Numbered from the stretch's first letter, positions 15,753-26,730 are shown. The stretch is 64,000 bases of DNA from Gemmatimonadota bacterium (GCA_963666735.1 OY762926.1:406734-470733); one strand, 5' to 3'. Made by a program: numbers and translations. The notes: generated from the letters alone by a model not told the origin.

Positions 15753-15957
15753 GAGGTTCCTCTCCGGTCTACAGGTTGGGTGTCACGGGACGGAATCGGT
15801 CCCGGCGAATGCCGCAGCGTAACGCCGCAGCGCAAGGTGCGCGGATCATATGCGCCGACCCGAACGGACGGCCAGTCCATGGGCTCTTGCTCGCGAACGA
15901 CGCAGCCTGTACCCGGAAGTGATGGGTAGGCCAGCTCTTGCCGTCGGGACACAAGAA

Positions 15958-16815
15958 ATGAATCCTCGCACGAACAACCTTGCCGGCGTGGACAACGTCA
16001 TCCCCCGTCCGGGGATGCTGGCCACCGTGCGGAAACGACGCGGCACAGTGACGTCGGTATCTCCGTTCGACGGCGAGACGGGACGGCTACACCTCGTTCA
16101 TCTCGAATACCGCGACGGCGGCTCACCGTCCGACGAGCGTCTGCTGTGGGAACTCGAGCCACGCAAGACCCTCCTTGAGCCGACCGCATTGCCGGACGCT
16201 TCCCGCTCCGATCCCATGCCTCCGGCCGATTTCGACGCTCTGCTACGGGCCGCGCGATGGACCGCGCTGTCGCCGTACCTGGGCCTTGACGGCAACGGTC
16301 GCGAGGAGGGCAAAGGGATAGGAGCTTTCCTTGCCCAGAACGGCGGCGAAGGCTGGTTGCTTCCCGAAACCCTTCGCTTGGCCGATTACGGACTGGGCCA
16401 TGACGACCGCGCTCAGCACCATCAGCCCGTCGCCAGCCGTCTCGGTCCACGATTCTGCGATTGGCAGCTCGCCCAGAGCGCCGAGGAGGATCGACGAGAG
16501 TGCCACCTGCATGCGCGCAACCTTCTGGGCCGGGTCGAGTACGTTCAGCTTCTCGGCCGGTTGGTCGGGCACCGCAGACGGCACGGACAGGGGCACCACG
16601 ATCTCCTCTTCAACGGGTTTACGCACGACTTGATCGGCGACACTTCGTCGATCGATGGCAAGGAGTTCGGCTACTCCGAGGCGGACCAGATTTTCGAGGA
16701 AGAAGGAGCGGCTCGGCGCGTCGCCGAAGCGGGTCCGGGCTACTCGACCGCGCCCTTCCGCAGGCCGGGTCAGACCGAGATGTTCCCAAGGTCTCAGACC
16801 GAGCCTCCCCTGTAG
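15958..16815 (+). CDS. Hypothetical protein (beta-rich N-terminal segment 'ATVRKRRGTVTSVSPFDGETGRLHLVHLEYRDG' faintly reminiscent of Tudor-like N-termini of RapA/SNF2-type proteins)
   Basis: Start 'MNPRTNN'; codon third-position GC is high throughout. Its stop is 11 nt upstream of the AlbA_2 gene (16827), which has its own RBS: an operon-like arrangement. Competing antisense ORF 16243-16626 not excluded. Confidence 0.4.
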   Translation: MNPRTNNLAGVDNVIPRPGMLATVRKRRGTVTSVSPFDGETGRLHLVHLEYRDGGSPSDERLLWELEPRKTLLEPTALPDASRSDPMPPADFDALLRAARWTALSPYLGLDGNGREEGKGIGAFLAQNGGEGWLLPETLRLADYGLGHDDRAQHHQPVASRLGPRFCDWQLAQSAEEDRRECHLHARNLLGRVEYVQLLGRLVGHRRRHGQGHHDLLFNGFTHDLIGDTSSIDGKEFGYSEADQIFEEEGAARRVAEAGPGYSTAPFRRPGQTEMFPRSQTEPPL

Positions 16816-16826
16816 AAGGCAGGACC

Positions 16827-18032
16827 ATGTTCGACACGCCCGACCAGATTTTGCGTCAGCTGAGAGCCGGAGAGGACAGCCGCGCCGAGTTCAAAGAACT
16901 CCGTTTCGGCGAACGAGGTGTGATCTCCCCGAACACGGAGGATTTGGCCGGGGAGATGGTGTCGTTCGCCAACGCGGAGGGCGGGACGATCTTCCTTGGC
17001 GTGGATGACGACGGGGACATCGTCGGCGTGCCTCGGGAGAAGTCGCAGCTCGTGGAGCAATGGGTGCTCAACGTCGCAACCCAGAACTGCGATCCGCCCC
17101 TCCGGCCGGAAGTCAGGCGGGAGGCCCTTCCGGTGCCGGGGGAGAACGGCCTGTCCATCATCCTAGTGACCGTTCCGCAGGGACTGTTTGCCCACTGTAC
17201 TGCCGGCGGCCGCTACTACGTCCGCCTCGGGTCGACCAAACGCCGTCTCACTCCCCCGGAGCTGGCCCGCCTGTTTCAGGAACGGGGCCGGGGGTATGTC
17301 TTCGACGAGCAGCAGGTCTTCTCCGGCGCGGTGGAGAATCTGGACTGGAACCGGTTGGAGGCGTTCTTCGGCCGCTCGCCGAGGATCCCATGGCTCGACC
17401 TCCTCCGGAATACGCGGGTGACCATCTGCGACCAAGGCGGCGTGGATCGGCCTACCGTTGCCGGGTTGCTCGCATTCTCGTCGGATCCGGCCGGTCTGTT
17501 GCCATCCGCGTACGTCGAGGCGGCCTGCTACGGCGGAACCCGCCTCTCATCGGATGATCTGGTGCATGCCGAGCGTCTCGCCGGTCCGGTCTCCGACCAG
17601 ATCGACGCAGGTATCGCCTTCGTCATGCACTTCATGAGCGCCGGACGTACGGCCGAGGGCATGGACGTGTACGACATCGATGTGGTAGACGAGGCCATCG
17701 TCAACGCCGTGGCCCACCGGGACTACTCCGTTTCGGGCTCGAAGATCCGCCTGTTCCTGTACGCCGACCGCTTGGAACTGTACAGCCCCGGCAAGCTGCC
17801 CAACGGACTGACGATCGAGGAGATGCCTTACCGCACCTTCACGCGCAACCAGCTTCTGGTCAGCTTTCTATCGAAGATGCGCAGCAAGCGCACCGGCCAG
17901 GTCTTCCTTGAGTCCCGAGGGGAAGGCGTGCGGAAGATCTTGGAGGACGGCGAGGCCCACGCAGGCCGCCGCCCGGAATACGAGCTGTTCGGAAACGAGC
18001 TCCGCCTGACCATTTGGGCGCTGAGGCGGTAG
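16827..18032 (+). CDS. Schlafen-like AlbA_2 (divergent AAA / AAA_4) + HATPase_c_4 (RecG-C-terminal-like) domain protein
   Basis: Trimmed to 'MFDTPDQILRQL' after RBS GAAGGCAGGA. 'AEFKELRFGE...VSFANAEGGTIFLGVDDDGDIVGV' (AlbA_2); 'DEAIVNAVAHRDYS...YADRLELYSPGKLPNGLTIEEM...RNQLLVSFLSKM' (HATPase_c_4). Confidence 0.7.
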   Translation: MFDTPDQILRQLRAGEDSRAEFKELRFGERGVISPNTEDLAGEMVSFANAEGGTIFLGVDDDGDIVGVPREKSQLVEQWVLNVATQNCDPPLRPEVRREALPVPGENGLSIILVTVPQGLFAHCTAGGRYYVRLGSTKRRLTPPELARLFQERGRGYVFDEQQVFSGAVENLDWNRLEAFFGRSPRIPWLDLLRNTRVTICDQGGVDRPTVAGLLAFSSDPAGLLPSAYVEAACYGGTRLSSDDLVHAERLAGPVSDQIDAGIAFVMHFMSAGRTAEGMDVYDIDVVDEAIVNAVAHRDYSVSGSKIRLFLYADRLELYSPGKLPNGLTIEEMPYRTFTRNQLLVSFLSKMRSKRTGQVFLESRGEGVRKILEDGEAHAGRRPEYELFGNELRLTIWALRR

Positions 18033-18192
18033 CCGTGGGCACGGCCGCCGTCAAGGCGAGAACGGTCACCGTTTGCGAAGGTCGACGCCGCAGCCGAGGC
18101 AGGGTCGGGGAAACGGGGTTTCGCGTGACGCTGAGATGTGGACGGGACGATTCCAGATCACCGGTTAGTATGATATGACAATCGGAGGCACG

Positions 18193-18645
18193 ATGGCGTT
18201 ACCGCAAATCAGCAAAGCCATCCGCAACGAGTTTCGAGAGGTTCTTAGCGGCCATTTTGTTCTGCGAGATATCAGCGACATCGTCACGGCTGCCGGTTTC
18301 TCGGATGACGTCACTTGGGAGGCGTGGGGCAATCGTCGCAAACTCGCTGAAGATTATTTCGCAACCCTGAACCTGGCGAGGCAACGCGATATCGCCATGC
18401 TATTGGCGGCCGTCAATAAAACAGCCGTTCGGTTAACGGCAGACGGTATCCCTGAGGGCATTAGCGATCTCATCCGACTGATGAGGGAGAATGGCTACAG
18501 CTACGAGGATGGTACCTTCACGGCAGTGCAGCAGCAGAAGGCGGTAACGGAGGAGCTAATGATGTGGTCATTGTCTACCTACAATTTCATTTGCTACGGT
18601 AGTCCCGATGCTCTCGTGTTTCGAGATGGAGTTGCCCCGCTTTGA
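18193..18645 (+). CDS. Hypothetical small protein in ~50% GC segment (probably horizontally acquired)
   Basis: GGAGGC RBS; 150 aa, no recognisable motifs. GC is about 20 points below the flanks. Its TGA stop coincides with the putative left end of the IS3 element. Confidence 0.5.
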   Translation: MALPQISKAIRNEFREVLSGHFVLRDISDIVTAAGFSDDVTWEAWGNRRKLAEDYFATLNLARQRDIAMLLAAVNKTAVRLTADGIPEGISDLIRLMRENGYSYEDGTFTAVQQQKAVTEELMMWSLSTYNFICYGSPDALVFRDGVAPL

Positions 18646-18684
18646 CGGACACCTATCCATTGGGGTCAAGCAAGGAGGTGTTCC

Positions 18685-18999
18685 ATGGCGGGCCGGAAGG
18701 GGCGGTATCCATCCGAGTACAGGGAGCGGCTGGTGGAACTGGTGAGGGGCGGGCGTAGTGCCGCGTCACTCGCCCGGAAGTTCGAGCCGTCGGAGCAGAC
18801 GATCCGGAACTGGGTCCGGCAGGCGGATGTGGACGAGGGGTTCCGTAGCGACGGGCTGACAACGGAGGCGCGCAGCGAGCTGCGGCGCCTGGAGCGGGAG
18901 AACAAGCGGCTCAGGATGGAGCGCGACATCCTAAAAAAAGCCGCGGCCTGGTTCGCGAGGGAGAGCGGATCGATCCCCGGCGGGGGTATGCGTTCATGA
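18685..18999 (+). CDS. IS3-family transposase OrfA (HTH/leucine zipper)
   Basis: 'GRYPSEYRERLVELVRGGRSAASLARKFEPSEQTIRNWVRQ' HTH; 'LRRLERENKRLRMERDILKKAAAWF' zipper plus frameshift window. Confidence 0.85.
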   Translation: MAGRKGRYPSEYRERLVELVRGGRSAASLARKFEPSEQTIRNWVRQADVDEGFRSDGLTTEARSELRRLERENKRLRMERDILKKAAAWFARESGSIPGGGMRS

Positions 19000-19844
19000 G
19001 GGCGCACCGGGCCGAGTTCCCGCTTCGGGCCATGTGCCGGGTGCTGGGTCTCTCCCCCAGCGGCTACTACGACTGGTTGAGGCGTCCTCCCTCGGACCGC
19101 GCGCGTCGGGACGCGGAACTGGAGGCGCGGATCGCGAAGATATGGACCGGCAGCGGCGAGACGTACGGCCGTCCGCGGATCCACGCGGCGCTCAGGGCCG
19201 AGGGCGAGCGGGTGGGGCAGAAGCGCGTGGGGCGGCTGATGAGGGGGCTGGAGATCGAGGGCGCGACCAGGCGGCGCTTCAAGACGGCGACGACGAAGAG
19301 GGATGCCGAGGCCCGCCCCGCGCCGGACCTGGTGGACCGTGACTTCTCGGCCTCGGGGCCCGACGAGCTGTGGGTGGCCGACATCACCTACGTCCCCACG
19401 TGGGCTGGCTGGCTGTATCTGGCCGTCGTGCTCGACGTCTGGAGCCGCCGCGTCGTCGGCTGGGCCATGGCGACGCACATGCGGACCGAGCTCGTCGAGA
19501 CCGCGCTGGCGATGGCTCTCGCAAGGCGTCGTCCCGAGGGTCGTGTCGTGCATCATTCCGACAGGGGCTCGCAGTACACCTCGCTCGCCTTCGGGGAGCG
19601 CTGCCGCGAGTCGGGCATCGCCCAGTCCATGGGCTCGGCGGGCGATGCGTACGACAACGCCATGTGCGAGAGCTTCTTCGCCACCCTCGAGTGCGAGCTG
19701 ATCTGGAAGCGCTCGTTCCGCACGGCGGACGAGGCGCGACGGGAGGTCTTCGGCTTCATCGAGGGCTTCTACAACACCCGGCGGCTGCACTCGGCACTCG
19801 GCTACGAGTCGCCGGCCGACTACGAGAGCAACCATGCGGCCTGA
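18996..19844 (+). CDS. IS3-family transposase OrfB (integrase-core DDE), translated via -1 frameshift from orfA
   Basis: 'LWVADITYVPTWAGWLYLAVVLDVWSRRVVGW' (D), 'HSDRGSQYTS' (D), 'GDAYDNAMCESFFATLECE' (E) rve-domain motifs. Confidence 0.85.
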   Translation: MRAHRAEFPLRAMCRVLGLSPSGYYDWLRRPPSDRARRDAELEARIAKIWTGSGETYGRPRIHAALRAEGERVGQKRVGRLMRGLEIEGATRRRFKTATTKRDAEARPAPDLVDRDFSASGPDELWVADITYVPTWAGWLYLAVVLDVWSRRVVGWAMATHMRTELVETALAMALARRRPEGRVVHHSDRGSQYTSLAFGERCRESGIAQSMGSAGDAYDNAMCESFFATLECELIWKRSFRTADEARREVFGFIEGFYNTRRLHSALGYESPADYESNHAA

Positions 19845-19942
19845 GGCGCACCCGCGGCGCACACCGACATCCTCTCCCGAGCGCCTGAGGGAGGCTGAAA
19901 GGAGAAGAACCGGAGGCGATCAACCACAGAAACTAACCGTCC

Positions 19943-20791
19943 GTGAAAGCGGGACAGCTCCAAGATCATACGGGTTCCAGTACATTCTCGAGGGGTCGGT
20001 TGTTCGAGTACACGAGTGAGGTGCTGAAGCTCCGGTATGAGACGGACGTGTCTTCGCTCGCCAAGCTGCCTGCTCTTATTGTCGCGGAGGCTATGCCTGA
20101 CGGGAAACCCGAGACACCCGCTTTCCTTGCACAGATTGGCGATGTCCACATTGGCGGTGACGATGTCCGGTTCCGGTTTCGACGGATCGAGACGGAGCAG
20201 TTCAGTTCTGAGGAGATATTTGAATCACGACGGTTCGACACAGGACGCTGGGAGCACTCACGGACGCACTGGGCGGTCAAGGAAGGCGATGTGCTTGAGG
20301 GGCTCTTCCTTTTTTTCGCTGATCGCGCGAGCGCGCAAGAAGCGCTGTTCCCGAGTATTGCAAAACCACGATTTGTTCGCCTCGACGATTGGCCTGCACC
20401 GGTCTTGGGACACGTCGCCGTCATGATGCCGTTCGATCGTGAGTATGACGTCGTCTATGACCGGATTCGGAAGGCTTGCGACATCCACAAACTTGACGCC
20501 GTACGAGTTGACGACATCTATGGGCCCAGTAGCATCATCGACGATGTTTTCAAACTCATTGTGCAAAGCAGATTTGTGATCAGTGATCTGACTAACAAGA
20601 ACCCAAATGTCTTATACGAAACTGGTATCGCCCACGCACGCAACAGCGAAGTCATAATGATCGTGCAGAGTGATGCGGATATACCGTTTGATCTCCGGCA
20701 TATTAGGTATATCAAATATCTCCCCAATGATGAAGGATATAGTCAACTCGAAACGGATCTGGTGAAAGCGATCGCTGCGATTGTTGAATGA
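19943..20791 (+). CDS. Hypothetical protein with C-terminal SLOG/TIR-like Rossmann domain (nucleoside 2-deoxyribosyltransferase-like); possible defence effector, N-terminus possibly truncated by IS3
   Basis: ~50% GC. C-terminal 'VAVMMPFDREYDVVYDRIRKACDIHKLDAVRVDD...IVQSRFVISDLTNKNPNVLYETGIAHARNSEVIMIV' fits the Nuc_deoxyrib_tr/SLOG pattern (D..GTafE.GyA.a.gK.vi). GTG start lies inside the putative IS3 right end. Confidence 0.5.
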   Translation: MKAGQLQDHTGSSTFSRGRLFEYTSEVLKLRYETDVSSLAKLPALIVAEAMPDGKPETPAFLAQIGDVHIGGDDVRFRFRRIETEQFSSEEIFESRRFDTGRWEHSRTHWAVKEGDVLEGLFLFFADRASAQEALFPSIAKPRFVRLDDWPAPVLGHVAVMMPFDREYDVVYDRIRKACDIHKLDAVRVDDIYGPSSIIDDVFKLIVQSRFVISDLTNKNPNVLYETGIAHARNSEVIMIVQSDADIPFDLRHIRYIKYLPNDEGYSQLETDLVKAIAAIVE

Positions 20792-20883
20792 TTGCAGTGG
20801 AGGCATCGCAGAACCGGAGGTGGCGCGGGGATACTGTGGCGGTCGAGGAGGACCGGAAGACGAGGCGGTCGTTGTGGGTGGAG

Positions 20884-22401
20884 TTACGATATGGATGGCG
20901 AGGGTTGAGTCGTGCCGCCAGGCATGCGCAGCCGCTTGCCCTCGCTTTCGGCCTCGTCGGGATCCAGGAAGGCATGGCACGCTTCCAGCTCCCGTTCCGT
21001 CTCTCGAAGCGAGGTCCAGGCGACGGCAAGGGTCCACCGCTGGGCGTAGCTGAGCATGTCGATCAAAGGCTGGGGCCGGCGGTCGGTTCGGGACAGCGCA
21101 GGGAGTGCGGCGAGGTAGTTGTTTCGGTACGCGGTCGGGATGATGATTCGCTCCTCACCGGCTGCCACGAGCTCCGCATTCATCATCACGCGCGCGACGC
21201 GTCCGTTTCCGTCCGCGAAGGGATGCACCTCGGCCACGAGGAACATCATGTAGACCGCCCGGGCAAGAGGCGACTCGAGGCTGCGATACAGAGAGAAGCC
21301 TCGCTCCAGCGTCCCTGATACCAGATCGGGGAGGACGAAGTGGGTGCCGCCGGCCTTGTTCGCAGCGTCCTTGAACTCGCCGGGGCGCATTTCGGGACGC
21401 CCTGCCATGATACGCCGGTGGCGGCTTCGCAGGAGACTCGTAAGCTCCGCTGGATCCCTCGGTGTGCGCGTCATCTCCTGTGGATCGGAGACCAAACGCC
21501 ACGTTCCGATCACATCGCGAGCATCTGCGGGTCTGCGCTGTGGAATCTCGCCGTCGAAAACGATTCGCACGGCCTCGTCGACCAGGAACTCGGTGCCCTC
21601 GACGAAGTTCGAGAAGTATGCCTCGAAGAACGCCAGCGTGGCGCGGCCCTGCCCATCCCGGTGCGGTGCGGATCGTACGGTCGGAGGATGGTCGCGGAGC
21701 GCCCGATGCAGCTTGTGAAACAATTCCATGCGGTCGGGATCGTAGGCGTTCGCCCGGCTGCGGGCCCGCGCAAGCGGTGAATCGAGTTCACTGCGGCGGG
21801 TGCCGAGGAGAGTGCCGATGAGAGCGTCGAGGCGGGCCGCCTCCGTCTCCAGACCGAGTTCGGCGGCCACGGCGCGGGCCTCGTCCCGCAGCTGCTTGAC
21901 GGCCGGTTCGCCGGAGTGACGGATAAGGCGATCGAGTGCTTCCTCAATCTGAGCCTGGGGGAGCGTGCGTGGCACCCGGCCGCCCCGGGTCCGAGACGGG
22001 CGCAGGTTCTGCAGGTAGGCCCGGGTCCTCGAGCTGAGGTATAGTCCTTCGGCGAAGGGCATATCGGATGTGATCGGTCCGGAACCGCGTCTCGGACGGA
22101 GTACGATGCCCGGCAACTCGATGGTCCTGCCGCGCTCGCTGACGAGGCATACGGAGCCATCGGACGCGGGGGCCGCCTCGAAGGCCGTGCGGTCGGCGAC
22201 CAGGGCACCTGGAAAATACCCGGCGACGATCATCCACAGGTTGCGTTTCACGATCTCCCTGGGCGCATCCTCCAGGTTCTTCGTGTAGAGGCGGGACGCG
22301 AGCTTGCGCAGCGTCCCGGCCTTCACGGCCCGCGACACTTCACCGCTGATCGCCGTATGCGACACGAAGGCTTCGGGCAGTTCGTCCAGCGTGCGGTTCA
22401 T
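20884..22401 (-). CDS. Fic/Doc-family protein (Fido domain), long form
   Basis: Start trimmed to 'MNRTLDELPEAF'. Canonical Fic motif 'HPFADGNGRVARV'. About 505 aa with a long N-terminal region. Confidence 0.8.
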   Translation of the reverse strand: MNRTLDELPEAFVSHTAISGEVSRAVKAGTLRKLASRLYTKNLEDAPREIVKRNLWMIVAGYFPGALVADRTAFEAAPASDGSVCLVSERGRTIELPGIVLRPRRGSGPITSDMPFAEGLYLSSRTRAYLQNLRPSRTRGGRVPRTLPQAQIEEALDRLIRHSGEPAVKQLRDEARAVAAELGLETEAARLDALIGTLLGTRRSELDSPLARARSRANAYDPDRMELFHKLHRALRDHPPTVRSAPHRDGQGRATLAFFEAYFSNFVEGTEFLVDEAVRIVFDGEIPQRRPADARDVIGTWRLVSDPQEMTRTPRDPAELTSLLRSRHRRIMAGRPEMRPGEFKDAANKAGGTHFVLPDLVSGTLERGFSLYRSLESPLARAVYMMFLVAEVHPFADGNGRVARVMMNAELVAAGEERIIIPTAYRNNYLAALPALSRTDRRPQPLIDMLSYAQRWTLAVAWTSLRETERELEACHAFLDPDEAESEGKRLRMPGGTTQPSPSIS

Positions 22402-22445
22402 CGAATTTTTCCGAGGATAACGATAAGAGAATCGCGCAAAACGCA

Positions 22446-22484
22446 AATTATCTTAACATAAGGAGCCCGAAATGCGAAAAAAGT
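22446..22484 (+). repeat. 39-bp low-GC direct repeat copy 1 (left flank of the 22629-24650 cassette; Fic promoter region)
   Basis: 'AATTATCTTAACATAAGGAGCCCGAAATGCGAAAAAAGT' versus copy 2 at 24711-24749, 35/39 identical. Sits in a ~40% GC stretch within a ~70% GC genome. Confidence 0.75.
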
Positions 22485-22628
22485 GCACTTATCGTTTTCC
22501 GGGAAGCTGATCCTGCGTCGCCCCTCGACCGAACACCGCACCCGAGCGAGCCCGGCCGGCGACGGTTTCACACGCCGGGAAGCGTTTCGTAGGCTGCGGG
22601 CAATCGACAACTCAACCGTCTGGCTTCC

Positions 22629-24650
22629 ATGGCCCTGAATCCCGTCGCCTACATCGAGAAGGTTGCGAAGAGTTTCCTCCGCTACCAGCTCACGGCCTAC
22701 CCCTTCTCCGACCCTCACCTCCTGGAGCAGATGCGGGAACTGCTGTCGCTGGACCACACCCGTGCCTCCCCGCTTCTCAGGGAGACCTCTGTCGGCGCGT
22801 CATCGTCGCTTGCGGGTGAGACGCTTCAAGCCATGGCGGTGTGCGATGTCGACCTAAGCCACACATCCCATATCTCCGACGACGAGGAACTGCACTTCCA
22901 GCTGGGTGTTGCGGTGTACGGCCTCGAACTCGGACAGCACAGTGGCGGGCGGGCGTACGGCTGGGGGGAGAGGTCGCTCCTCATGCGGCGAGGCGTACGC
23001 ATGCGCCTCGTCAACGTCGGTGCTTCGGAGCCGATCAGGGCAAGAGACAGCTTCGGCTATCCCGTCTGTACGATCTGCGGCCAGAGCGTGTCGCCGCTGT
23101 CATCTCAACGGCAACGTCAGAGCTTCCGCGAATCGCACCGTGATCGTTGCGGACGTGAGCCGAGGCGGGTCGGGTTCTACGCCGATATCGCGGCCGACGC
23201 GTTGTCGCTGCGCGAGTGCGTCAATGCTACCCAGGCCTACAGCGTTCTCGAGGCGTTGCGGATCGGCGCGACCCGTATCCTCGACATGCACATGGAGGAT
23301 CTGCAGATCCTCGTCATTGGCGAGATCGGACGCGACGAGGTGTTGGGTCTCCTATGGGATCCGATGCCCGGAGGGTCCGGGCTGCTCGACCGCCTGTGCG
23401 AGCGCTTCGCGGAGATCGTAGCTGTCGCCCGCGAGGTCGTAGAGGGGTGCCCGAGCGTCTGCGGGTCGTCGTGTATCGATTGTCTGCAGACCTTCCGCAA
23501 CGCGTACTACCACTCCAGCCTGGATCGGAGGGCCGCTCTGGACGCGCTCGGGGAGTGGGGAGAGCAACTCGCGTTCCGGCACGATGTCCCGCCGCGGCAA
23601 CCTGCATCCACGCCCGCCGATGATGCGGTGCCCGTCAATCTGGCCGAGAGGAAGCTGCGCCATCTCCTCCTCCGGGCGGGATTCGGGGAGGGCACGCGCG
23701 GAGAACAGATCCGGCTCGACAGCGCCCTTGGCACGACTACGCCCGACGTCATCTACCGCGACGATGATGACGATTTCTGCAAGGGCGTATGCATCTACCT
23801 CGACGGAATGAGCGCGCATCTGCACGGCAGCCCCGAGACCGCCGCGAGGGATCGGGAAATTCGCCACTGGCTACGGGGCAGCGGCTACGAAGTCCTGGAG
23901 ATTCCAGCCAACGAACTCGACGACGAGGGCGCCATGACGGGCCATTTCCGTCGCCTCGCGAACTATCTGGGCCAACCCAATCGCGGGCGAGATCTTTCCG
24001 ACGACCGGAGTTGGTTCGCGGATCCCGATCCAGCGGGGAAAACAGACGATCCAGCGGACAGCCCGCGCTTGCGCCTGGTTACCCCCACTCCCGAGAGTCG
24101 CTACCAAACATGCGTCCCGCTGGTGCCGCTGCGGGCGGCGGCGGGAGCCTTCGGCGATCCGAACGAGACACTTGACGAGTGGGACCGGGACTGGGTAGCC
24201 GCCGACACGGTTCGTCGGCTCCGGGACGGAATGTTCGTGGCTCGCGTGACCGGCCGCTCGATGGAGCCGCGTATTCCCGATGGTTCGTATTGCCTCTTCG
24301 CAAGTCCTGTAACCGGCTCGCGCCAAGGGCGCACGGTGCTGGTGATCATGCGGGACGATGTGGACCCGGAGACGGGCGCCCGGTTCACCATGAAGCGATA
24401 CCGAAGCAAGAAGATGGAAGATGAGCATGGCTGGCGACACGCCAAGATCAGCCTGGAGCCAACCAACCCGGATTTCGACCCCATCATCCTCAGAGTGGAT
24501 GACGAGGCGGCGGTGGGTGTCGTGGCGGAACTCGTTGAAGTCCTCGGTCGCGACCCCCCCGAGCCGCGATTGGGTACGGCCCCGGAGCTGATCCGACGGA
24601 TGGGGGATGACTTCGACGAGCCGCTCCCGGATTTCTCGGAGCATCAGTGA
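22629..24650 (+). CDS. Multidomain protein: DUF1998-like (DrmB/MrfB-type) N-terminal zinc module + Vsr/DUF559-like endonuclease fold + C-terminal LexA-type S24 autopeptidase
   Basis: 673 aa. N-terminus 'NPVAYIEKVAKSFLRYQLTAYPF'. Cys cluster C147/C150 ('YPVCTICGQ') and 'CPSVCGSSCIDC' (aa 274-285). aa 373-445 'DVIYRDDDDDF...VCIYLDGMSAHLHG...DREIRHWLRGSGYEVLEI'. aa 495-640 aligns to LexA/UmuD/CI: 'PLVPLRAAAGAFGDP' (Ala505-Gly506), 'GRSMEP' (Ser544), 'MKRY' (Lys589). No helicase or ATPase motifs. Confidence 0.65.
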   Translation: MALNPVAYIEKVAKSFLRYQLTAYPFSDPHLLEQMRELLSLDHTRASPLLRETSVGASSSLAGETLQAMAVCDVDLSHTSHISDDEELHFQLGVAVYGLELGQHSGGRAYGWGERSLLMRRGVRMRLVNVGASEPIRARDSFGYPVCTICGQSVSPLSSQRQRQSFRESHRDRCGREPRRVGFYADIAADALSLRECVNATQAYSVLEALRIGATRILDMHMEDLQILVIGEIGRDEVLGLLWDPMPGGSGLLDRLCERFAEIVAVAREVVEGCPSVCGSSCIDCLQTFRNAYYHSSLDRRAALDALGEWGEQLAFRHDVPPRQPASTPADDAVPVNLAERKLRHLLLRAGFGEGTRGEQIRLDSALGTTTPDVIYRDDDDDFCKGVCIYLDGMSAHLHGSPETAARDREIRHWLRGSGYEVLEIPANELDDEGAMTGHFRRLANYLGQPNRGRDLSDDRSWFADPDPAGKTDDPADSPRLRLVTPTPESRYQTCVPLVPLRAAAGAFGDPNETLDEWDRDWVAADTVRRLRDGMFVARVTGRSMEPRIPDGSYCLFASPVTGSRQGRTVLVIMRDDVDPETGARFTMKRYRSKKMEDEHGWRHAKISLEPTNPDFDPIILRVDDEAAVGVVAELVEVLGRDPPEPRLGTAPELIRRMGDDFDEPLPDFSEHQ

Positions 24651-24710
24651 GCGAACATCAAGAACCGAGATTATTCGAACGGTAAGGGTTCCGCAGGACT
24701 CGAAAATGAG

Positions 24711-24749
24711 AATTATCTCAACATAAGAAGCCCTAAACGCGAAAAAAGT
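24711..24749 (+). repeat. 39-bp low-GC direct repeat copy 2 (right flank of cassette)
   Basis: 'AATTATCTCAACATAAGAAGCCCTAAACGCGAAAAAAGT'; lies between the converging 3' ends of genes 22629-24650 and 24799-25407. Confidence 0.75.
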
Positions 24750-24798
24750 AGCTTTAGCCTGTGGCGTGACGTCAACTCCGGATTGGAATCAGGGGCTT

Positions 24799-25407
24799 CT
24801 ACCCGCCGTCCATGACTTGGGCCCACTGGCCGGGGATGCTGTTCCACTTCTCGGGCGCCGTAGCCTTGACGATCGGGGAGGGGTGAGGGGATTCCACCAG
24901 ACGCAGATCCCCTGCTTGGTCCGCCACCTTCGCCTTCGCCTTGGCGGCATTCCGGCCGACGAACACGACTGAGTCGAGCCGCGGCAAGAGTCGGATAAGC
25001 TGTGCGACGCGCTCGATCCCCGCGTTGAGTTCCATATTGGTAACCTTCAGGGTGCCGTTCCACCACGGGATCACATTCCAGAGTACGGCCTCGTAACGCG
25101 GCACCCCCGCGTCGCGCATGAACCGGAAGGTCGCCTCCGCCGTGGGGTCGTTGTTGTCCCGGCTAATGAAGCCGGATCCGCCTTCGTCGGGGCTCGTCTT
25201 GGGTCCGGGCTTCTCGAACAGGAAGAGAACCCGTGCGGCAGTGCCTCCGTCCAACGGGTCGAAGCAGGGGACAAACGTCGCCGGCTTCTCGGCCCGCAAC
25301 TCCCTTGTGAAGTCGGTCAGCGGCCGAACGTGCGGCAGGTCGAGAAGGCCTTGCCGGCGCTTACACTCCTCGGGGTTGCCGAGCGTCCGCGGCGTCGTCG
25401 GGTGCAA
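24799..25407 (-). CDS. Uracil-DNA glycosylase superfamily protein (UDG-like, unclassified family)
   Basis: 'LFLFEKPGPKTSPDEGGSGF' (motif-A-like E.PG) and C-terminal 'ESPHPSPIV' (HPSP motif-B-like). TTG start 18 nt after the aminotransferase stop, suggesting co-transcription. Confidence 0.5.
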   Translation of the reverse strand: MHPTTPRTLGNPEECKRRQGLLDLPHVRPLTDFTRELRAEKPATFVPCFDPLDGGTAARVLFLFEKPGPKTSPDEGGSGFISRDNNDPTAEATFRFMRDAGVPRYEAVLWNVIPWWNGTLKVTNMELNAGIERVAQLIRLLPRLDSVVFVGRNAAKAKAKVADQAGDLRLVESPHPSPIVKATAPEKWNSIPGQWAQVMDGG

Positions 25408-25425
25408 GCTCGCCTGTCCGATCGT

Positions 25426-26730
25426 TCAGGCGGGAATGCCGTGCTTCACCGCGTGGGTCATCGCGTCCACGAAGCGGTCCAGTTCCTCGATCGTCGTGTA
25501 GGTGGATGGGGAGATGCGAAGCCCCGTGAACTCGGCGTGGTTGATGCCGACCGTGAAGATCCGGTGCTTGTTCCACAGCCAGTTGCGGAGCGCGCTCGTG
25601 TCGATGCCCTCGACCTGGACGTTCGCGATCCCGCACGCGAAGCCCGGCTTGAGGCTCGTGTTGAGCCGCACGCGGTCGTACTCCAGGAGCTGGTCCGCCC
25701 AGTAGTTCCGGAGGTGGACGAGGCGGGCTTCCTTGCGCTCGCCGCCGACCAGCTGGTGGAAGGTGAGCGCCTCGCCGATGGCGAGGAAGTTGGCCTCGGG
25801 GTGCGTGCCGATCGCCTCGAACTTCCGGATGTCGTCGTCGCTGCTCTCGGCGGCGGCCTGCAGCGGCCAGACCTCCGGGATCTTCTCCCGCCTCACGTAG
25901 AGGAGGCCCGTACCGACTGGGGCGTGAAGCCACTTGTGCAGGCTCACCGCGTAGTTGTCACAGTTGAGATCGGAGAAGGTAAAGTCATGGTGCGCCATGG
26001 AATGTGCGCCATCGACGATGACCGGGATGTCGTAGCCGCGCGCCATCTCCACGACTTCGCGCACGGGGAGGATCTGCCCTGTGATGTTGATCATGTGGCA
26101 CATGAGGATGAGCCGCGTGCGGTCGGTGATCTGCTCCTCGAACAGGCGCACGATCTCGGCCGGATCCTCGGCGGGAATCGGGATCTTGAACTGCTTGAGG
26201 ACGATCCCCTCGCGCCGCTCGCGCTGCTTGAAGGTCGTGATCATGCGCCCGTAATCCTGCGTCGTCGTCACCACTTCGTCGCCGCGCTCGAGGTCGTATC
26301 CGTTCTGGAGGATCTGGAGACCCTCCGACGCGTTGCGCGTGATCGCGACCTCCTCCGGGTCCACGTCCCACTGGCGGGCGAGCCGGGCGCGGACGCCCTC
26401 CCGCTGCGGCTCCAGGATCTGCCACCCGTTGTAGACCGGGATCTGGTTCGCGAAGTCGAGATCCCGCTTCATTGCCTCGAGCACGTGGGCGGGCGTCGGG
26501 CTCACGCCCCCGTTGTTGAGGTTGACGAGGGAACGGTCGGTGGTGAACGCCTTCTGTATCTCGAGCCAGAATTCCTCGTCGCGCGCGATCTCCCCGGGGG
26601 AGCCGGGGGTGCGGGACAAGTCACGGGCCGCCGCCATGGCGGTGTTCCACTTCGTGGGCACGGCGGTCATGACTCCGGCTGCTGCGGCGGAGCCCCCGAG
26701 GCGGGCGAGGAATCGTCGTCGGGTGGGCAT
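25426..26730 (-). CDS. Class V aminotransferase-fold PLP enzyme (isopenicillin-N-epimerase / cysteine-desulfurase-like) with twin-arginine (TAT) signal
   Basis: Start trimmed to 'MPTRRRFLARLGGSAAAAGVMTAV' (RRxFL TAT motif). 'VIVDGAHSMAHHD...SLHKWL' PLP-lysine region typical of class V. Confidence 0.7.
   Translation of the reverse strand: MPTRRRFLARLGGSAAAAGVMTAVPTKWNTAMAAARDLSRTPGSPGEIARDEEFWLEIQKAFTTDRSLVNLNNGGVSPTPAHVLEAMKRDLDFANQIPVYNGWQILEPQREGVRARLARQWDVDPEEVAITRNASEGLQILQNGYDLERGDEVVTTTQDYGRMITTFKQRERREGIVLKQFKIPIPAEDPAEIVRLFEEQITDRTRLILMCHMINITGQILPVREVVEMARGYDIPVIVDGAHSMAHHDFTFSDLNCDNYAVSLHKWLHAPVGTGLLYVRREKIPEVWPLQAAAESSDDDIRKFEAIGTHPEANFLAIGEALTFHQLVGGERKEARLVHLRNYWADQLLEYDRVRLNTSLKPGFACGIANVQVEGIDTSALRNWLWNKHRIFTVGINHAEFTGLRISPSTYTTIEELDRFVDAMTHAVKHGIPA

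What the first reader, a model, noticed from the sequence alone, without database searches (positions are those of the whole stretch)
18100..20791. ~50% GC two-gene cassette split by an IS3 insertion; downstream gene has a SLOG/TIR-like effector-type domain
GC drops from ~70% to ~50% at ~18120-18645 (150-aa unknown protein) and again at 19947-20791 (282-aa protein). The intervening IS3 element has its own, higher GC content. The stop codon of the first gene coincides with the putative IS3 left end, and the GTG start of the second lies inside the putative right end.

This fits an ancestral horizontally acquired bicistron (small partner + effector) bisected by IS3, possibly inactivating or N-terminally truncating the effector. 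The effector C-terminus fits the nucleoside-2-deoxyribosyltransferase/SLOG Rossmann pattern ('NPNVLYETGIAHARNSEV') seen in nucleotide-processing defence or conflict systems.
Basis: partly seen in the sequence, partly recalled or inferred. Interest (0 to 1): 0.6.

Follow-up and report, generated by a model that had tools for sequence, protein, structure and literature searches.

The report
One defence-type gene split by IS3
The two low-GC "genes" are the two halves of one 419-residue gene of an uncharacterised defence-island family (unknown sensor-like domain plus a TIR/deoxyribosyltransferase-like enzyme domain), cut in two by an IS3-family insertion, so this copy is a recently broken gene in a decaying defence island.

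Summary
Both low-GC ORFs (GC 0.53 and 0.52, window 0.68) flank an intact IS3-family element. I map the IS to 18627..19962 (1336 bp, TG…CA inverted repeats, 3-bp duplication AGA).

The "ancestral bicistron" reading does not hold. Removing the IS and one AGA copy joins the ORFs in frame into a single gene (18193..18626 + 19966..20791, 419 aa). A sister genome (Candidatus Palauibacter sp.) has the same locus without the IS and an intact 419-aa protein at 97% identity. About 20 further full-length homologues run straight across the junction.

The protein has three predicted domains:
- an N-terminal helical domain, found only in Gemmatimonadota long forms;
- a β-rich middle domain absent from Pfam, with only a weak PUA-like fold signal;

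In remote relatives the middle domain sits in front of mostly NAD+-targeting effectors (Cap12-TIR, TIR_2, FRG). The family lives in defence islands, next to type I R-M, BREX-like and AlbA_2 genes. The most likely function is a one-protein abortive-infection sensor–effector, inactivated here. Homology to the m6dAMP-sensing PUA domain of Metis was tested and not found.

The parts
18193..18626 (+). 5' part of the disrupted gene: codons 1-144 plus 2 nt. It encodes the N-terminal helical domain and the first ~22 residues of the conserved middle domain. The likely start is ATG 18193, with SD GGAGG at 18184-18188; the ORF finder's upstream ATG is 18175.
   Evidence: P0001 starts at the equivalent MALPQ. 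The region is 93% identical to L001 8120-10431.
18624..18626 (.). Left copy of the 3-bp target-site duplication (AGA).
   Evidence: A single GGA sits at the empty site in L001.
18627..19962 (+). IS3-family insertion sequence, 1336 bp. IRL 18627-18650, IRR 19939-19962. orfA 18685..18999 and orfB 18996..19844, with orfB in the -1 frame. In-frame slippery heptamer A_AAA_AAA at 18933-18939.
   Evidence: Only one copy in the window. Absent from the syntenic locus L001.
19963..19965 (.). Right copy of the target-site duplication (AGA).
19966..20791 (+). 3' part of the disrupted gene, including the stop. It encodes the rest of the middle β-rich domain (to about residue 290) and the C-terminal TIR/DrHyd-like domain (about 295-425), with invariant H300, M304, M305, F307, D358, N363, N365, E369, G371, H374, D389, P391 and F392.
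   Evidence: The region is 95% identical to L001 10433-13256.
16827..18032 (+). Upstream neighbour: AlbA_2 (Schlafen-like) / HATPase_c_4 protein, apparently intact. This is a recurrent neighbour of the family.
   Evidence: P0221 is a direct fusion of the middle domain to AlbA_2.
20884..22446 (-). Downstream neighbour: Fic-domain protein on the opposite strand, apparently intact. Part of the same island.

Best explanation
**What is shown.** Window 18193..20791 is one gene that an IS3-family element has interrupted at codon 145 of the 419-aa product. This is codon 151 in the 425-aa numbering used here.

**What is predicted.** The intact product is a three-domain protein:
- a helical N-domain;
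- a β-rich middle domain that is a swappable N-terminal module in many conflict-system proteins;
- a C-terminal Rossmannoid domain of the TIR/DrHyd (nucleoside 2-deoxyribosyltransferase, DNPH1) class with an invariant Glu369.

**What is inferred about function.** The intact protein is a single-polypeptide abortive-infection or defence effector. The N-terminal and middle domains would sense an infection cue and hold the enzyme in check. On activation, the C-domain would cleave an N-glycosidic bond, most likely of NAD+ and otherwise of a (deoxy)nucleotide, which stops growth of the infected cell.

**State in this genome.** The gene is dead. The 5' ORF ends at a stop inside the IS left repeat. 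The 3' ORF starts at a GTG inside the right repeat and lacks the first strand of the middle domain. The insertion is one of three lesions that have eroded this defence island.
For: **Single gene, shown**
- The two ORFs fuse in frame after IS excision.
- The empty site is present in the sister genome.
- About 20 full-length homologues at 59-97% identity, and hundreds of ~290-aa short forms, are continuous across the junction.

**IS identity**
-.

**Domains**
- The AF2 full model has pLDDT 80, with three well-predicted blocks.
- The middle-domain model has pLDDT 88 and pTM 0.84.

**C-domain class**
- Foldseek finds DNPH1, NDT and TIR domains.
- PADLOC finds a CBASS TIR effector at 2.6e-8.
- A profile against PDB aligns NVLYETG with NVVFEFG of the Cap12 TIR domain, weakly (E 0.26).
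- Relatives with the same C-domain give sub-threshold Nuc_deoxyrib_tr hits, E 0.006-0.014.

**Sensor-effector logic**
- The middle-domain profile finds 503 representative proteins.
- Among 116 remote relatives the partner domains are CAP12-PCTIR_TIR 18, TIR_2 13, FRG 6, Abi_C 5, TIR 4, Nuc_deoxyrib_tr 2, KAP_NTPase 2, kinases 2, and CHAT, SEFIR, ThsB_TIR and AlbA_2 1 each.
- About 28 more carry this same unannotated C-domain.
- PADLOC candidate-defence models PDC-S35, PDC-S15 and AbiJ match only the C-terminal effector parts of these relatives.

**Defence context**
- The gene sits directly after HsdS, with a 15-33-bp gap, in 4 loci.
- It is fused to HsdM in P0105.
- It lies next to AlbA_2/HATPase_c_4, PglZ, N6 methyltransferases and an integrase, and on an ICE.
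- In the sister genome it lies between a DrmD/DrmMI-like pair and a DruE-like helicase.

**Published model.** Anantharaman et al. 2013 (PMC3710099) proposed the same logic for N-terminal-domain-plus-toxin Abi proteins. Iyer et al. 2022 (PMC9503650) describe TIR/DrHyd NADase effectors.
Against: - No biochemical or phage-challenge data exist for any member of the family.
- The protein itself passes no Pfam, NCBIfam or PADLOC family threshold. The only hit is a 72-residue match to a TIR effector model.
- The best structural neighbours, DNPH1 and NDT, act on deoxynucleotides and not on NAD+, so the substrate is open.
- The middle domain has no confident structural or sequence relative, so 'sensor' rests on architecture alone.
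- Defence-island residence is correlative, and I ran no background control for neighbour frequencies.
- dN/dS against the sister copy is 0.25. Most of the divergence therefore predates inactivation, and this says nothing about function.
Confidence: 0.6

Rival explanations
1. One reading: an ancestral two-gene cassette (small partner or antitoxin plus effector) whose intergenic region received the IS.
For: Two separate ORFs are visible today. Many short-form homologues (~290 aa) lack the N-terminal 127 residues, so the N-domain is dispensable in other lineages.
Against: - The ORFs fuse in frame.
- All ~20 long-form homologues, and the syntenic sister locus, encode one polypeptide.
- The breakpoint is 22 residues inside the core shared with the short forms, not at the N-domain/core boundary.
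- The stop of ORF1 and the start of ORF2 are IS sequence.
Confidence: 0.02
2. A Metis-like danger sensor. The middle domain would be a PUA-like reader of a methylome-derived modified nucleotide, such as m6dAMP released when phage degrades host DNA. It would switch on the TIR/DrHyd-like NADase, using the m6A made by neighbouring R-M, BREX or DISARM methyltransferases.
For: - The best fold neighbours of the middle domain are PUA-like: YTH m6A readers (E 1.3e-3), Lon-N, SRA and cereblon, and ASCH-like proteins in BFVD.
- N6-adenine methyltransferases recur near the gene among 126 neighbour ORFs: N6_Mtase 4, Eco57I 3, N6_N4_Mtase 3, MmeI_Mtase 2.
- The gene sits directly after HsdS in 4 loci and is fused to HsdM in one.
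- The PUA-Cal-HAD preprint (10.64898/2026.01.15.699771) reports a PUA-like family fused to DrHyd, TIR and HEPN and embedded in N6-MTase R-M operons.
- Metis senses m6dAMP through a PUA-like domain (10.1101/2025.11.05.686725).
Against: - Direct test negative: none of 24 family members hits Pfam PF24405 (Pua-like), the MisA sensor domain.
- hhalign of the broad middle-domain profile against 63 MisA N-domains gives probability 0.2%, no better than an unrelated control at 1.25%.
- The MisA ligand residues (WWGWW...K) have no counterpart.
- Fold matches have TM about 0.4 only.
- No calcineurin, HAD, HNH or McrB partners appear among the top 150 relatives.
- Methyltransferase adjacency may simply reflect defence-island clustering.
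Confidence: 0.15
3. The C-domain is a true deoxyribohydrolase/DNPH1-type enzyme. It would act on (modified) deoxynucleotides or on DNA bases, either depleting nucleotide pools or excising bases from phage DNA, and would not be an NADase.
For: - The top 41 Foldseek PDB hits are DNPH1/Rcl or NDT. DNPH1 hydrolyses hmdUMP, according to the PDB entry titles.
- Relatives give weak Nuc_deoxyrib_tr hits.
- Anantharaman et al. 2013 proposed base excision for NDT domains fused to Abi N-terminal domains.
Against: - Sequence-level matches go to Cap12-type TIR effector models.
- The domains that replace it behind the same middle domain are mostly NAD+-directed: TIR, SEFIR and FRG.
- Fold similarity within the TIR/DrHyd/SLOG clade does not discriminate substrate.
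Confidence: 0.2
4. The family is not defensive at all. It would be a mobile-element addiction or regulatory gene that merely travels with R-M and ICE cargo.
For: It occurs on an ICE next to T4SS/AlpA genes and next to an integrase. It always has lower GC than its host. No experimental data exist.
Against: The recurrent neighbours are defence genes. The effector repertoire of middle-domain relatives is the typical abortive-infection toxin set, and several match PADLOC defence candidates.
Confidence: 0.1

Closest known systems
Cap12 / Pycsar-type TIR effectors (Pfam PF10137 CAP12-PCTIR_TIR; TIR-SAVED, PDB 7un8)
   Same: Both are Rossmannoid C-terminal effector domains with a Glu in an hhh(F/Y)E.G motif after strand 3. 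A PADLOC CBASS TIR-effector model hits residues 327-398, and there is a weak profile match to 7un8. Eighteen remote relatives carry a true PF10137 domain behind the same middle domain.
   Different: The protein itself does not reach PF10137 or any TIR Pfam model. It has no SAVED or cyclic-nucleotide sensor and no CD-NTase or cyclase partner gene. The sensor is a different, undescribed domain.
DNPH1/Rcl and nucleoside 2-deoxyribosyltransferases (DrHyd superfamily)
   Same: These are the best structural neighbours of the C-domain: E 8e-5 to 2e-3, target-normalised TM 0.6-0.74 over ~130 residues. Relatives give sub-threshold PF05014 hits.
   Different: Identity is only 14-17% and the match is below Pfam thresholds. 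DNPH1 and NDT are stand-alone metabolic enzymes, whereas this domain is the C-terminal module of a multidomain island protein.
Metis (MisA/MisB), also called PUA-Cal-HAD: an m6dAMP-sensing defence system
   Same: The architecture logic is shared: an N-terminal β-barrel reader-like domain plus a C-terminal nucleotide/NAD+-degrading enzyme. Both associate with N6-adenine methyltransferases. The preprint mentions PUA-DrHyd and PUA-TIR fusions.
   Different: The sensor domain is not PF24405. The effector is not calcineurin-like. There is no HAD partner.
AbiJ-type 'N-terminal domain + toxin' abortive-infection proteins (Anantharaman et al. 2013, PMC3710099)
   Same: Both use a modular N-terminal domain swapped among HEPN, TIR, kinase and NDT effectors. 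The proposed model is that the N-terminal domain senses the phage and restrains the toxin. Four or five relatives carry AbiJ/Abi_C HEPN behind the middle domain.
   Different: The middle domain matches none of the Pfam AbiJ_NTD models. In P0243 AbiJ_NTD3 and the middle domain are separate, adjacent modules.
PADLOC candidate single-gene systems PDC-S35 and PDC-S15
   Same: 17 and 6 remote relatives respectively match these models strongly, and they share the middle domain with the window protein.
   Different: The matches cover only the effector halves of those relatives. The window protein does not hit these models at all.

Membership tests
IS3 family insertion sequence | Two overlapping ORFs: orfA with an HTH domain and orfB with a DDE (rve) transposase domain in the -1 frame, with a slippery site | tested here: met
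   HTH_Tnp_1 at 2.7e-12; rve at 4.7e-27, plus HTH_21 and rve_3. A_AAA_AAA at 18933-18939 is in the orfA frame, and orfB is in the -1 frame.
IS3 family insertion sequence | Imperfect terminal inverted repeats ending 5'-TG...CA-3', a short (3-5 bp) target duplication, and a length of about 1.2-1.5 kb | tested here: met
   IRs match at 21 of 24 positions, with TG/CA termini, TSD AGA and a length of 1336 bp. The empty site in L001 confirms the ends.
Two-gene (partner + effector / toxin-antitoxin) cassette | Two independently conserved, separately translated genes | tested here: not met
   The ORFs fuse in frame. All long-form homologues and the syntenic locus encode one polypeptide.
TIR / DrHyd (TDS-clade Rossmannoid) effector domain | Three-layer α/β fold with a 5-stranded parallel sheet resembling TIR/NDT | tested here: met
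   The AF2 model shows β-α repeats at 300-424. Foldseek finds DNPH1, NDT, MAL and TLR1 TIR domains, with target-normalised TM up to 0.74. This rests on a predicted structure only.
TIR / DrHyd (TDS-clade Rossmannoid) effector domain | Conserved catalytic Glu after strand 3 | tested here: met
   E369 is invariant in 24 sequences within NPNVLYE.G.AH and aligns with the E of Cap12 FEFG. That this Glu is catalytic is background knowledge, not assayed here.
TIR / DrHyd (TDS-clade Rossmannoid) effector domain | Passes a curated family model (PF13676, PF01582, PF10137, PF05014, PF08937) | tested here: not met
   No such Pfam hit at E<=1 for the protein. Relatives reach only E 0.006-0.014 for PF05014.
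TIR / DrHyd (TDS-clade Rossmannoid) effector domain | NAD+ or nucleotide N-glycosidase activity | not testable with these tools
   Needs biochemistry.
Metis / PUA-Cal-HAD (m6dAMP-sensing) | PF24405 'Pua-like' sensor domain | tested here: not met
   MisA (L088:3001-4650) hits PF24405 at 1.3e-42. None of the 24 family members hits it at E<=10. hhalign gives probability 0.2%, against a control of 1.25%.
Metis / PUA-Cal-HAD (m6dAMP-sensing) | Calcineurin-like effector and an adjacent HAD phosphatase | tested here: not met
   There is no Metallophos domain. The neighbours are AlbA_2 and Fic. HAD is not among the recurrent neighbour families listed.
Metis / PUA-Cal-HAD (m6dAMP-sensing) | Functional dependence on host N6-adenine methylation | tested here: inconclusive
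   N6 methyltransferases are frequent neighbours and one HsdM fusion exists, but I ran no background control and there is no functional test.
PUA-like fold (YTH/EVE/ASCH/SRA/Lon-N) | Confident structural superposition on a PUA-like β-barrel | tested here: inconclusive
PADLOC PDC-S35 / PDC-S15 candidates | Match to the PADLOC models | tested here: not met
   The only hit for the protein is PDLC00733. The PDC hits in relatives are to their different effector domains.

The most novel reading that the evidence does not exclude
The ~150-residue middle domain has the hallmark motif R..E(Y/H)T ... LP.L...E ... E..RTHWA.K..DL, has 503 representative proteins and is absent from Pfam. It could be a new ligand- or trigger-sensing module of bacterial immunity with a PUA-like fold. 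In this reading it reads a modified nucleotide produced from the host methylome, convergent with or very distantly related to the Metis sensor. It would then gate a whole set of NAD+-degrading effectors: a DrHyd-like domain, Cap12-TIR, TIR_2, FRG and SEFIR. That would explain its placement behind HsdS and HsdM and beside BREX- and DISARM-type adenine methyltransferases.
Probability: 0.15. Interest if true: 0.75.

Novelty: new variant of a known kind. Interest (0 to 1): 0.38.

Why it matters
**For this window.** The result is mostly a correction. The region should be annotated as one IS-disrupted pseudogene, not two genes. The surrounding ~10-kb island carries three independent lesions, which makes it a clean example of defence-island decay between two closely related Gemmatimonadota genomes.

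**Beyond the window.** The intact family is uncharacterised. Its sensor-like middle domain is undescribed in Pfam and PADLOC, yet it sits in front of many known NAD+-targeting immune effectors. Intact homologues such as P0001 or the HsdS-adjacent short forms would be reasonable candidates for experimental testing as one-protein abortive-infection systems, and for identifying what the domain senses.

Tried and rejected
- **Bicistron or toxin-antitoxin reading.** Rejected by the in-frame fusion, the empty site and the full-length homologues.
- **Membership in the Metis/PUA-Cal sensor family.**
  - I recovered E. coli E308 MisA by using a primer sequence from the preprint's Table S6 as a DNA probe.
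  - I confirmed that its N-domain is PF24405.
  - I collected 63 MisA homologues and ran hhalign against the middle-domain profile. The result was probability 0.2%, against 1.25% for an unrelated control (my first run was mistakenly in global mode).
  - Rejected as homology; kept only as an analogy.
- **Profile searches of the whole protein and of the broad middle-domain alignment against PDB sequences.** These gave only a weak Cap12 hit and noise.
- **Pfam, NCBIfam and PADLOC on the protein, the middle domain and the N-domain.** Nothing passed a threshold.
- **Exact-sequence look-up of IS orfB, to find other copies and the source contig.** Not on record. IS ends therefore rest on the inverted repeats, the duplication and the empty-site comparison.
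- **Truncated MisA N-terminal query in the word-indexed protein search.** It returned only 2 hits, so I used the full-length query instead.
- **Direction of nonsynonymous changes.** Seven of nine polarisable changes are on the window branch (my reading). This is suggestive of relaxed constraint, but the numbers are too small (one-sided p about 0.09) to claim.
Full report
**1. Observation**

The region behaves as described.
- GC is 0.533 for 18175..18626 and 0.523 for 19966..20791. It is 0.686 for the element between them and 0.683 for the window.
- The ORFs are 18175..18645 (156 aa, or 150 aa from ATG 18193, which has GGAGG 4 nt upstream) and 19943..20791 (282 aa).
- The element between them encodes an HTH_Tnp_1 orfA (18685..18999) and an rve-type orfB (18996..19844) in the -1 frame. 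An in-frame A_AAA_AAA slippery heptamer lies at 18933-18939.
- Related DNA on plasmids (65-68% identity) is annotated as IS3 family transposase.

**2. Exact anatomy of the insertion**

- The longest inverted repeat in the region has arms at 18627-18650 and 19939-19962, matching at 21 of 24 positions, and it starts TG and ends CA.
- Immediately outside the arms lies a direct repeat AGA, at 18624-18626 and 19963-19965.
- The IS is therefore 18627..19962, 1336 bp. It is the only copy in the window.
- The TGA that ends ORF1 (18643-18645) and the GTG that starts ORF2 (19943) both lie inside the IS terminal repeats.

**3. One gene, not two**

- Deleting the IS and one AGA copy joins the two ORFs in frame, giving a 425-codon ORF from ATG 18175 or 419 codons from the better start at 18193.
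- A search of 5.8 billion proteins with the fused sequence found P0001: 419 aa, 97% identity, 99% coverage, annotated as a hypothetical protein of Candidatus Palauibacter sp. It also found about 20 further proteins of 419-463 aa with 59-70% identity over 98-100% of the query.
- In the alignment the junction (…VFRD|HTGSS…) lies in continuous, conserved sequence.
- The P0001 locus (L001, on a 4.03-Mb contig) is syntenic with the window. L001 8120-10431 matches window 16313-18623 at 93%, and L001 10433-13256 matches window 19964-22792 at 95%.
- At the insertion point L001 reads GTGTTTCGGGACCATACGG, where the window reads GTGTTTCGAGA[IS]AGATCATACGG. This is an empty site, which proves both the IS ends and the single-gene origin.
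- Hundreds of ~290-aa short forms start at M.WSLS.YNLICYG (residue 128 of the long form), which is 22 residues upstream of the breakpoint.
- The 3' ORF therefore cannot yield even a complete short form. It lacks the first β-strand and seven invariant or near-invariant residues.
- The bicistron interpretation is refuted. The gene is a pseudogene here.
- Against the sister copy, dS is 0.066, dN is 0.017 and dN/dS is 0.25. Together with the perfect duplication and the intact IS, this indicates a recent insertion.

**4. What the intact protein is**

No Pfam, NCBIfam or PADLOC family threshold is passed. The only hit is a 72-residue match (residues 327-398, E 2.6e-8) to a PADLOC CBASS 'Effector TIR' model.

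AlphaFold2 on 24 sequences gives pLDDT 80 with three blocks:
- helical, residues 1-120;
- β-rich, residues 133-280;
- α/β, residues 295-425.

*C-domain.*
- Foldseek against PDB returns DNPH1/Rcl (E 8e-5, target-normalised TM 0.6-0.74), a nucleoside 2'-deoxyribosyltransferase, and the MAL and TLR1 TIR domains.
- The family profile weakly matches the TIR domain of Cap12, aligning LtkrnpnvLYetG with LTKPRDNVVFEFG.
- E369 and its surroundings (D358, N363, N365, G371, H374, D389, P391, F392) are invariant.
- Relatives with the same C-domain give sub-threshold Nuc_deoxyrib_tr hits.
- The C-domain therefore belongs to the TIR/DrHyd branch of Rossmannoid nucleotide glycohydrolases (background: PMC9503650). 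Nothing points to SLOG specifically.

*Middle domain.*
- Modelled alone, it gives pLDDT 88 and pTM 0.84.
- Its best PDB neighbours are PUA-like barrels, but only weakly: YTHDF3 and YTHDF2 YTH domains, Lon N-domains, the SUVH6 SRA domain and cereblon (best E 1.3e-3, TM about 0.4).
- BFVD gives nothing significant.
- A profile search of 1.84 billion representative proteins finds 503 relatives, 21 of them at E<=1e-30.
- In the remote relatives the domain is usually N-terminal and is followed by varied effectors. Of 116 scanned: CAP12-PCTIR_TIR 18, TIR_2 13, FRG 6, Abi_C 5, TIR 4, KAP_NTPase 2, kinases 2, Nuc_deoxyrib_tr 2, and CHAT, SEFIR, ThsB_TIR and AlbA_2 1 each. About 28 more carry the same unannotated C-domain as the window protein.
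- PADLOC candidate systems PDC-S35, PDC-S15 and PDC-S66, and AbiJ, match these relatives only over their effector halves.
- The hallmark motif of the domain is R..E(Y/H)T … LP.L…E … E..RTHWA.K..DL.
- A module exchanged among toxin-type, mostly NAD+-directed enzymes is the signature of a sensor or regulatory domain. The same logic was proposed for AbiJ N-terminal domains (PMC3710099).

*N-domain.* It occurs only in Gemmatimonadota long forms and has no detectable relatives.

**5. Context**

- In the sister genome the gene order is as follows:
  - a DrmD-like SNF2 helicase (E 1e-186);
  - a DrmMI / type IIG N6-adenine methyltransferase-endonuclease;
  - its C-terminal piece;
  - an AlbA_2/HATPase_c_4 gene;
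  - this gene;
  - a Fic gene on the opposite strand;
  - a 1998-aa DruE-like helicase with MZB and S24 domains.
- Elsewhere the short form:
  - follows HsdS by 15-33 bp in four type I R-M operons;
  - is fused to HsdM in P0105, with an AlbA_2 gene downstream;
  - sits next to AlbA_2 and PglZ in Vicinamibacterales;
  - lies on an ICE;
  - lies beside an integrase.
- A Pfam census of 126 nearest-neighbour ORFs from 33 loci is led by SLFN_AlbA_2 (6), Methylase_S (5), HATPase_c_4 (5), N6_Mtase (4), then SWI2_SNF2, HSDR_N, ResIII, PglZ, Eco57I and N6_N4_Mtase (3 each).
- Family genes are always lower in GC than their flanks: 0.45-0.57 against 0.51-0.70.
- This is a mobile, defence-island gene.

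**6. Mechanism**

*Shown.* One gene, IS-disrupted, with IS-supplied stop and start codons.

*Predicted.* The three-domain architecture and the TIR/DrHyd-like fold with an invariant Glu.

*Inferred.* A one-protein abortive-infection device in which the N-terminal and middle domains sense infection and release an N-glycosidase activity. The substrate is most likely NAD+, because the interchangeable effectors are mostly NADase families. A DNPH1-like action on deoxynucleotides is the main alternative.

**7. The Metis question**

- Two 2025-26 preprints show that a PUA-like domain senses m6dAMP released from methylated host DNA (Metis MisA, also called PUA-Cal-HAD). One of them reports PUA-like fusions to DrHyd, TIR and HEPN and placement in N6-methyltransferase R-M operons. 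That description resembles this family, so I tested it.
- I recovered E. coli E308 MisA with a primer sequence from the preprint's supplement. Its N-domain is Pfam PF24405 'Pua-like', E 1.3e-42.
- None of the 24 family members hits PF24405 even at E<=10.
- hhalign of the broad middle-domain profile against 63 MisA N-domains gives probability 0.2%, the same as an unrelated control at 1.25%.
- Membership is not supported. A convergent or extremely distant relationship remains possible, and I give it about 0.15.

**8. Verdict**

It is half wrong: this is not a bicistron, and there is no viable truncated effector.
- The object in this window is a dead gene.
- The family behind it is an uncharacterised variant of the known 'sensor domain + TIR-like toxin' kind, with an undescribed sensor-like domain that may merit experimental follow-up.

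Noticed in passing
window ~15850-16815 (junction at ~16310/16313): Relative to the sister genome, the window lacks 7.9 kb (L001 242-8119). The missing DNA encodes most of a DrmD-like SNF2 helicase, a DrmMI / type IIG N6-adenine methyltransferase-endonuclease and most of a 623-aa protein. A chimeric 321-aa ORF is left behind.
   Followed up: partly
window 22629-24650 (junction in 22777-22792): There is an in-frame 4032-bp (1344-codon) deletion inside the 1998-aa DruE-like DEAD/Helicase_C/MZB/S24 gene, apparently between short TCAGGG(A/G)G(A/C)CCT repeats. The 673-aa remnant keeps only the MZB and Peptidase_S24 parts.
   Followed up: partly
window ~15800-26000: The whole island has reduced GC (0.61-0.65, against about 0.70 outside). 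It has taken three independent lesions, two deletions and the IS, while the AlbA_2 and Fic genes remain full length. It looks like a defence island in decay. There is no tRNA or integrase in the window.
   Followed up: partly
window 16827-18032; loci L006, L015, L018, L020, L045, L005; protein P0221: AlbA_2 (Schlafen-like)/HATPase_c_4 genes sit directly next to family members in several lineages, on either side. One relative fuses the middle domain directly to AlbA_2. The functional link is unexplained.
   Followed up: partly
L004, L010, L011, L013 (gene starts 15-33 bp after HsdS); L005 (P0105): Short forms are the last gene of type I R-M operons in Binatia genomes. One metagenomic protein is an HsdM_N-N6_Mtase fusion to the family core.
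   Followed up: partly
proteins P0143-P0267 (relatives of fused residues 128-290): The middle domain defines a sizeable family that neither Pfam nor PADLOC matched in my scans, with 503 representatives at 50% clustering. Its hallmark is E..RTHWA.K..DL, and it sits in front of TIR, FRG, HEPN, KAP NTPase, kinase and CHAT effectors.
   Followed up: yes
window 22250-22700 and 24500-24950: Two further short low-GC patches (0.55-0.57). The first is the divergent intergenic region between the Fic gene and the helicase remnant. The second lies at the 3' end of the helicase remnant. Not examined further.
   Followed up: no
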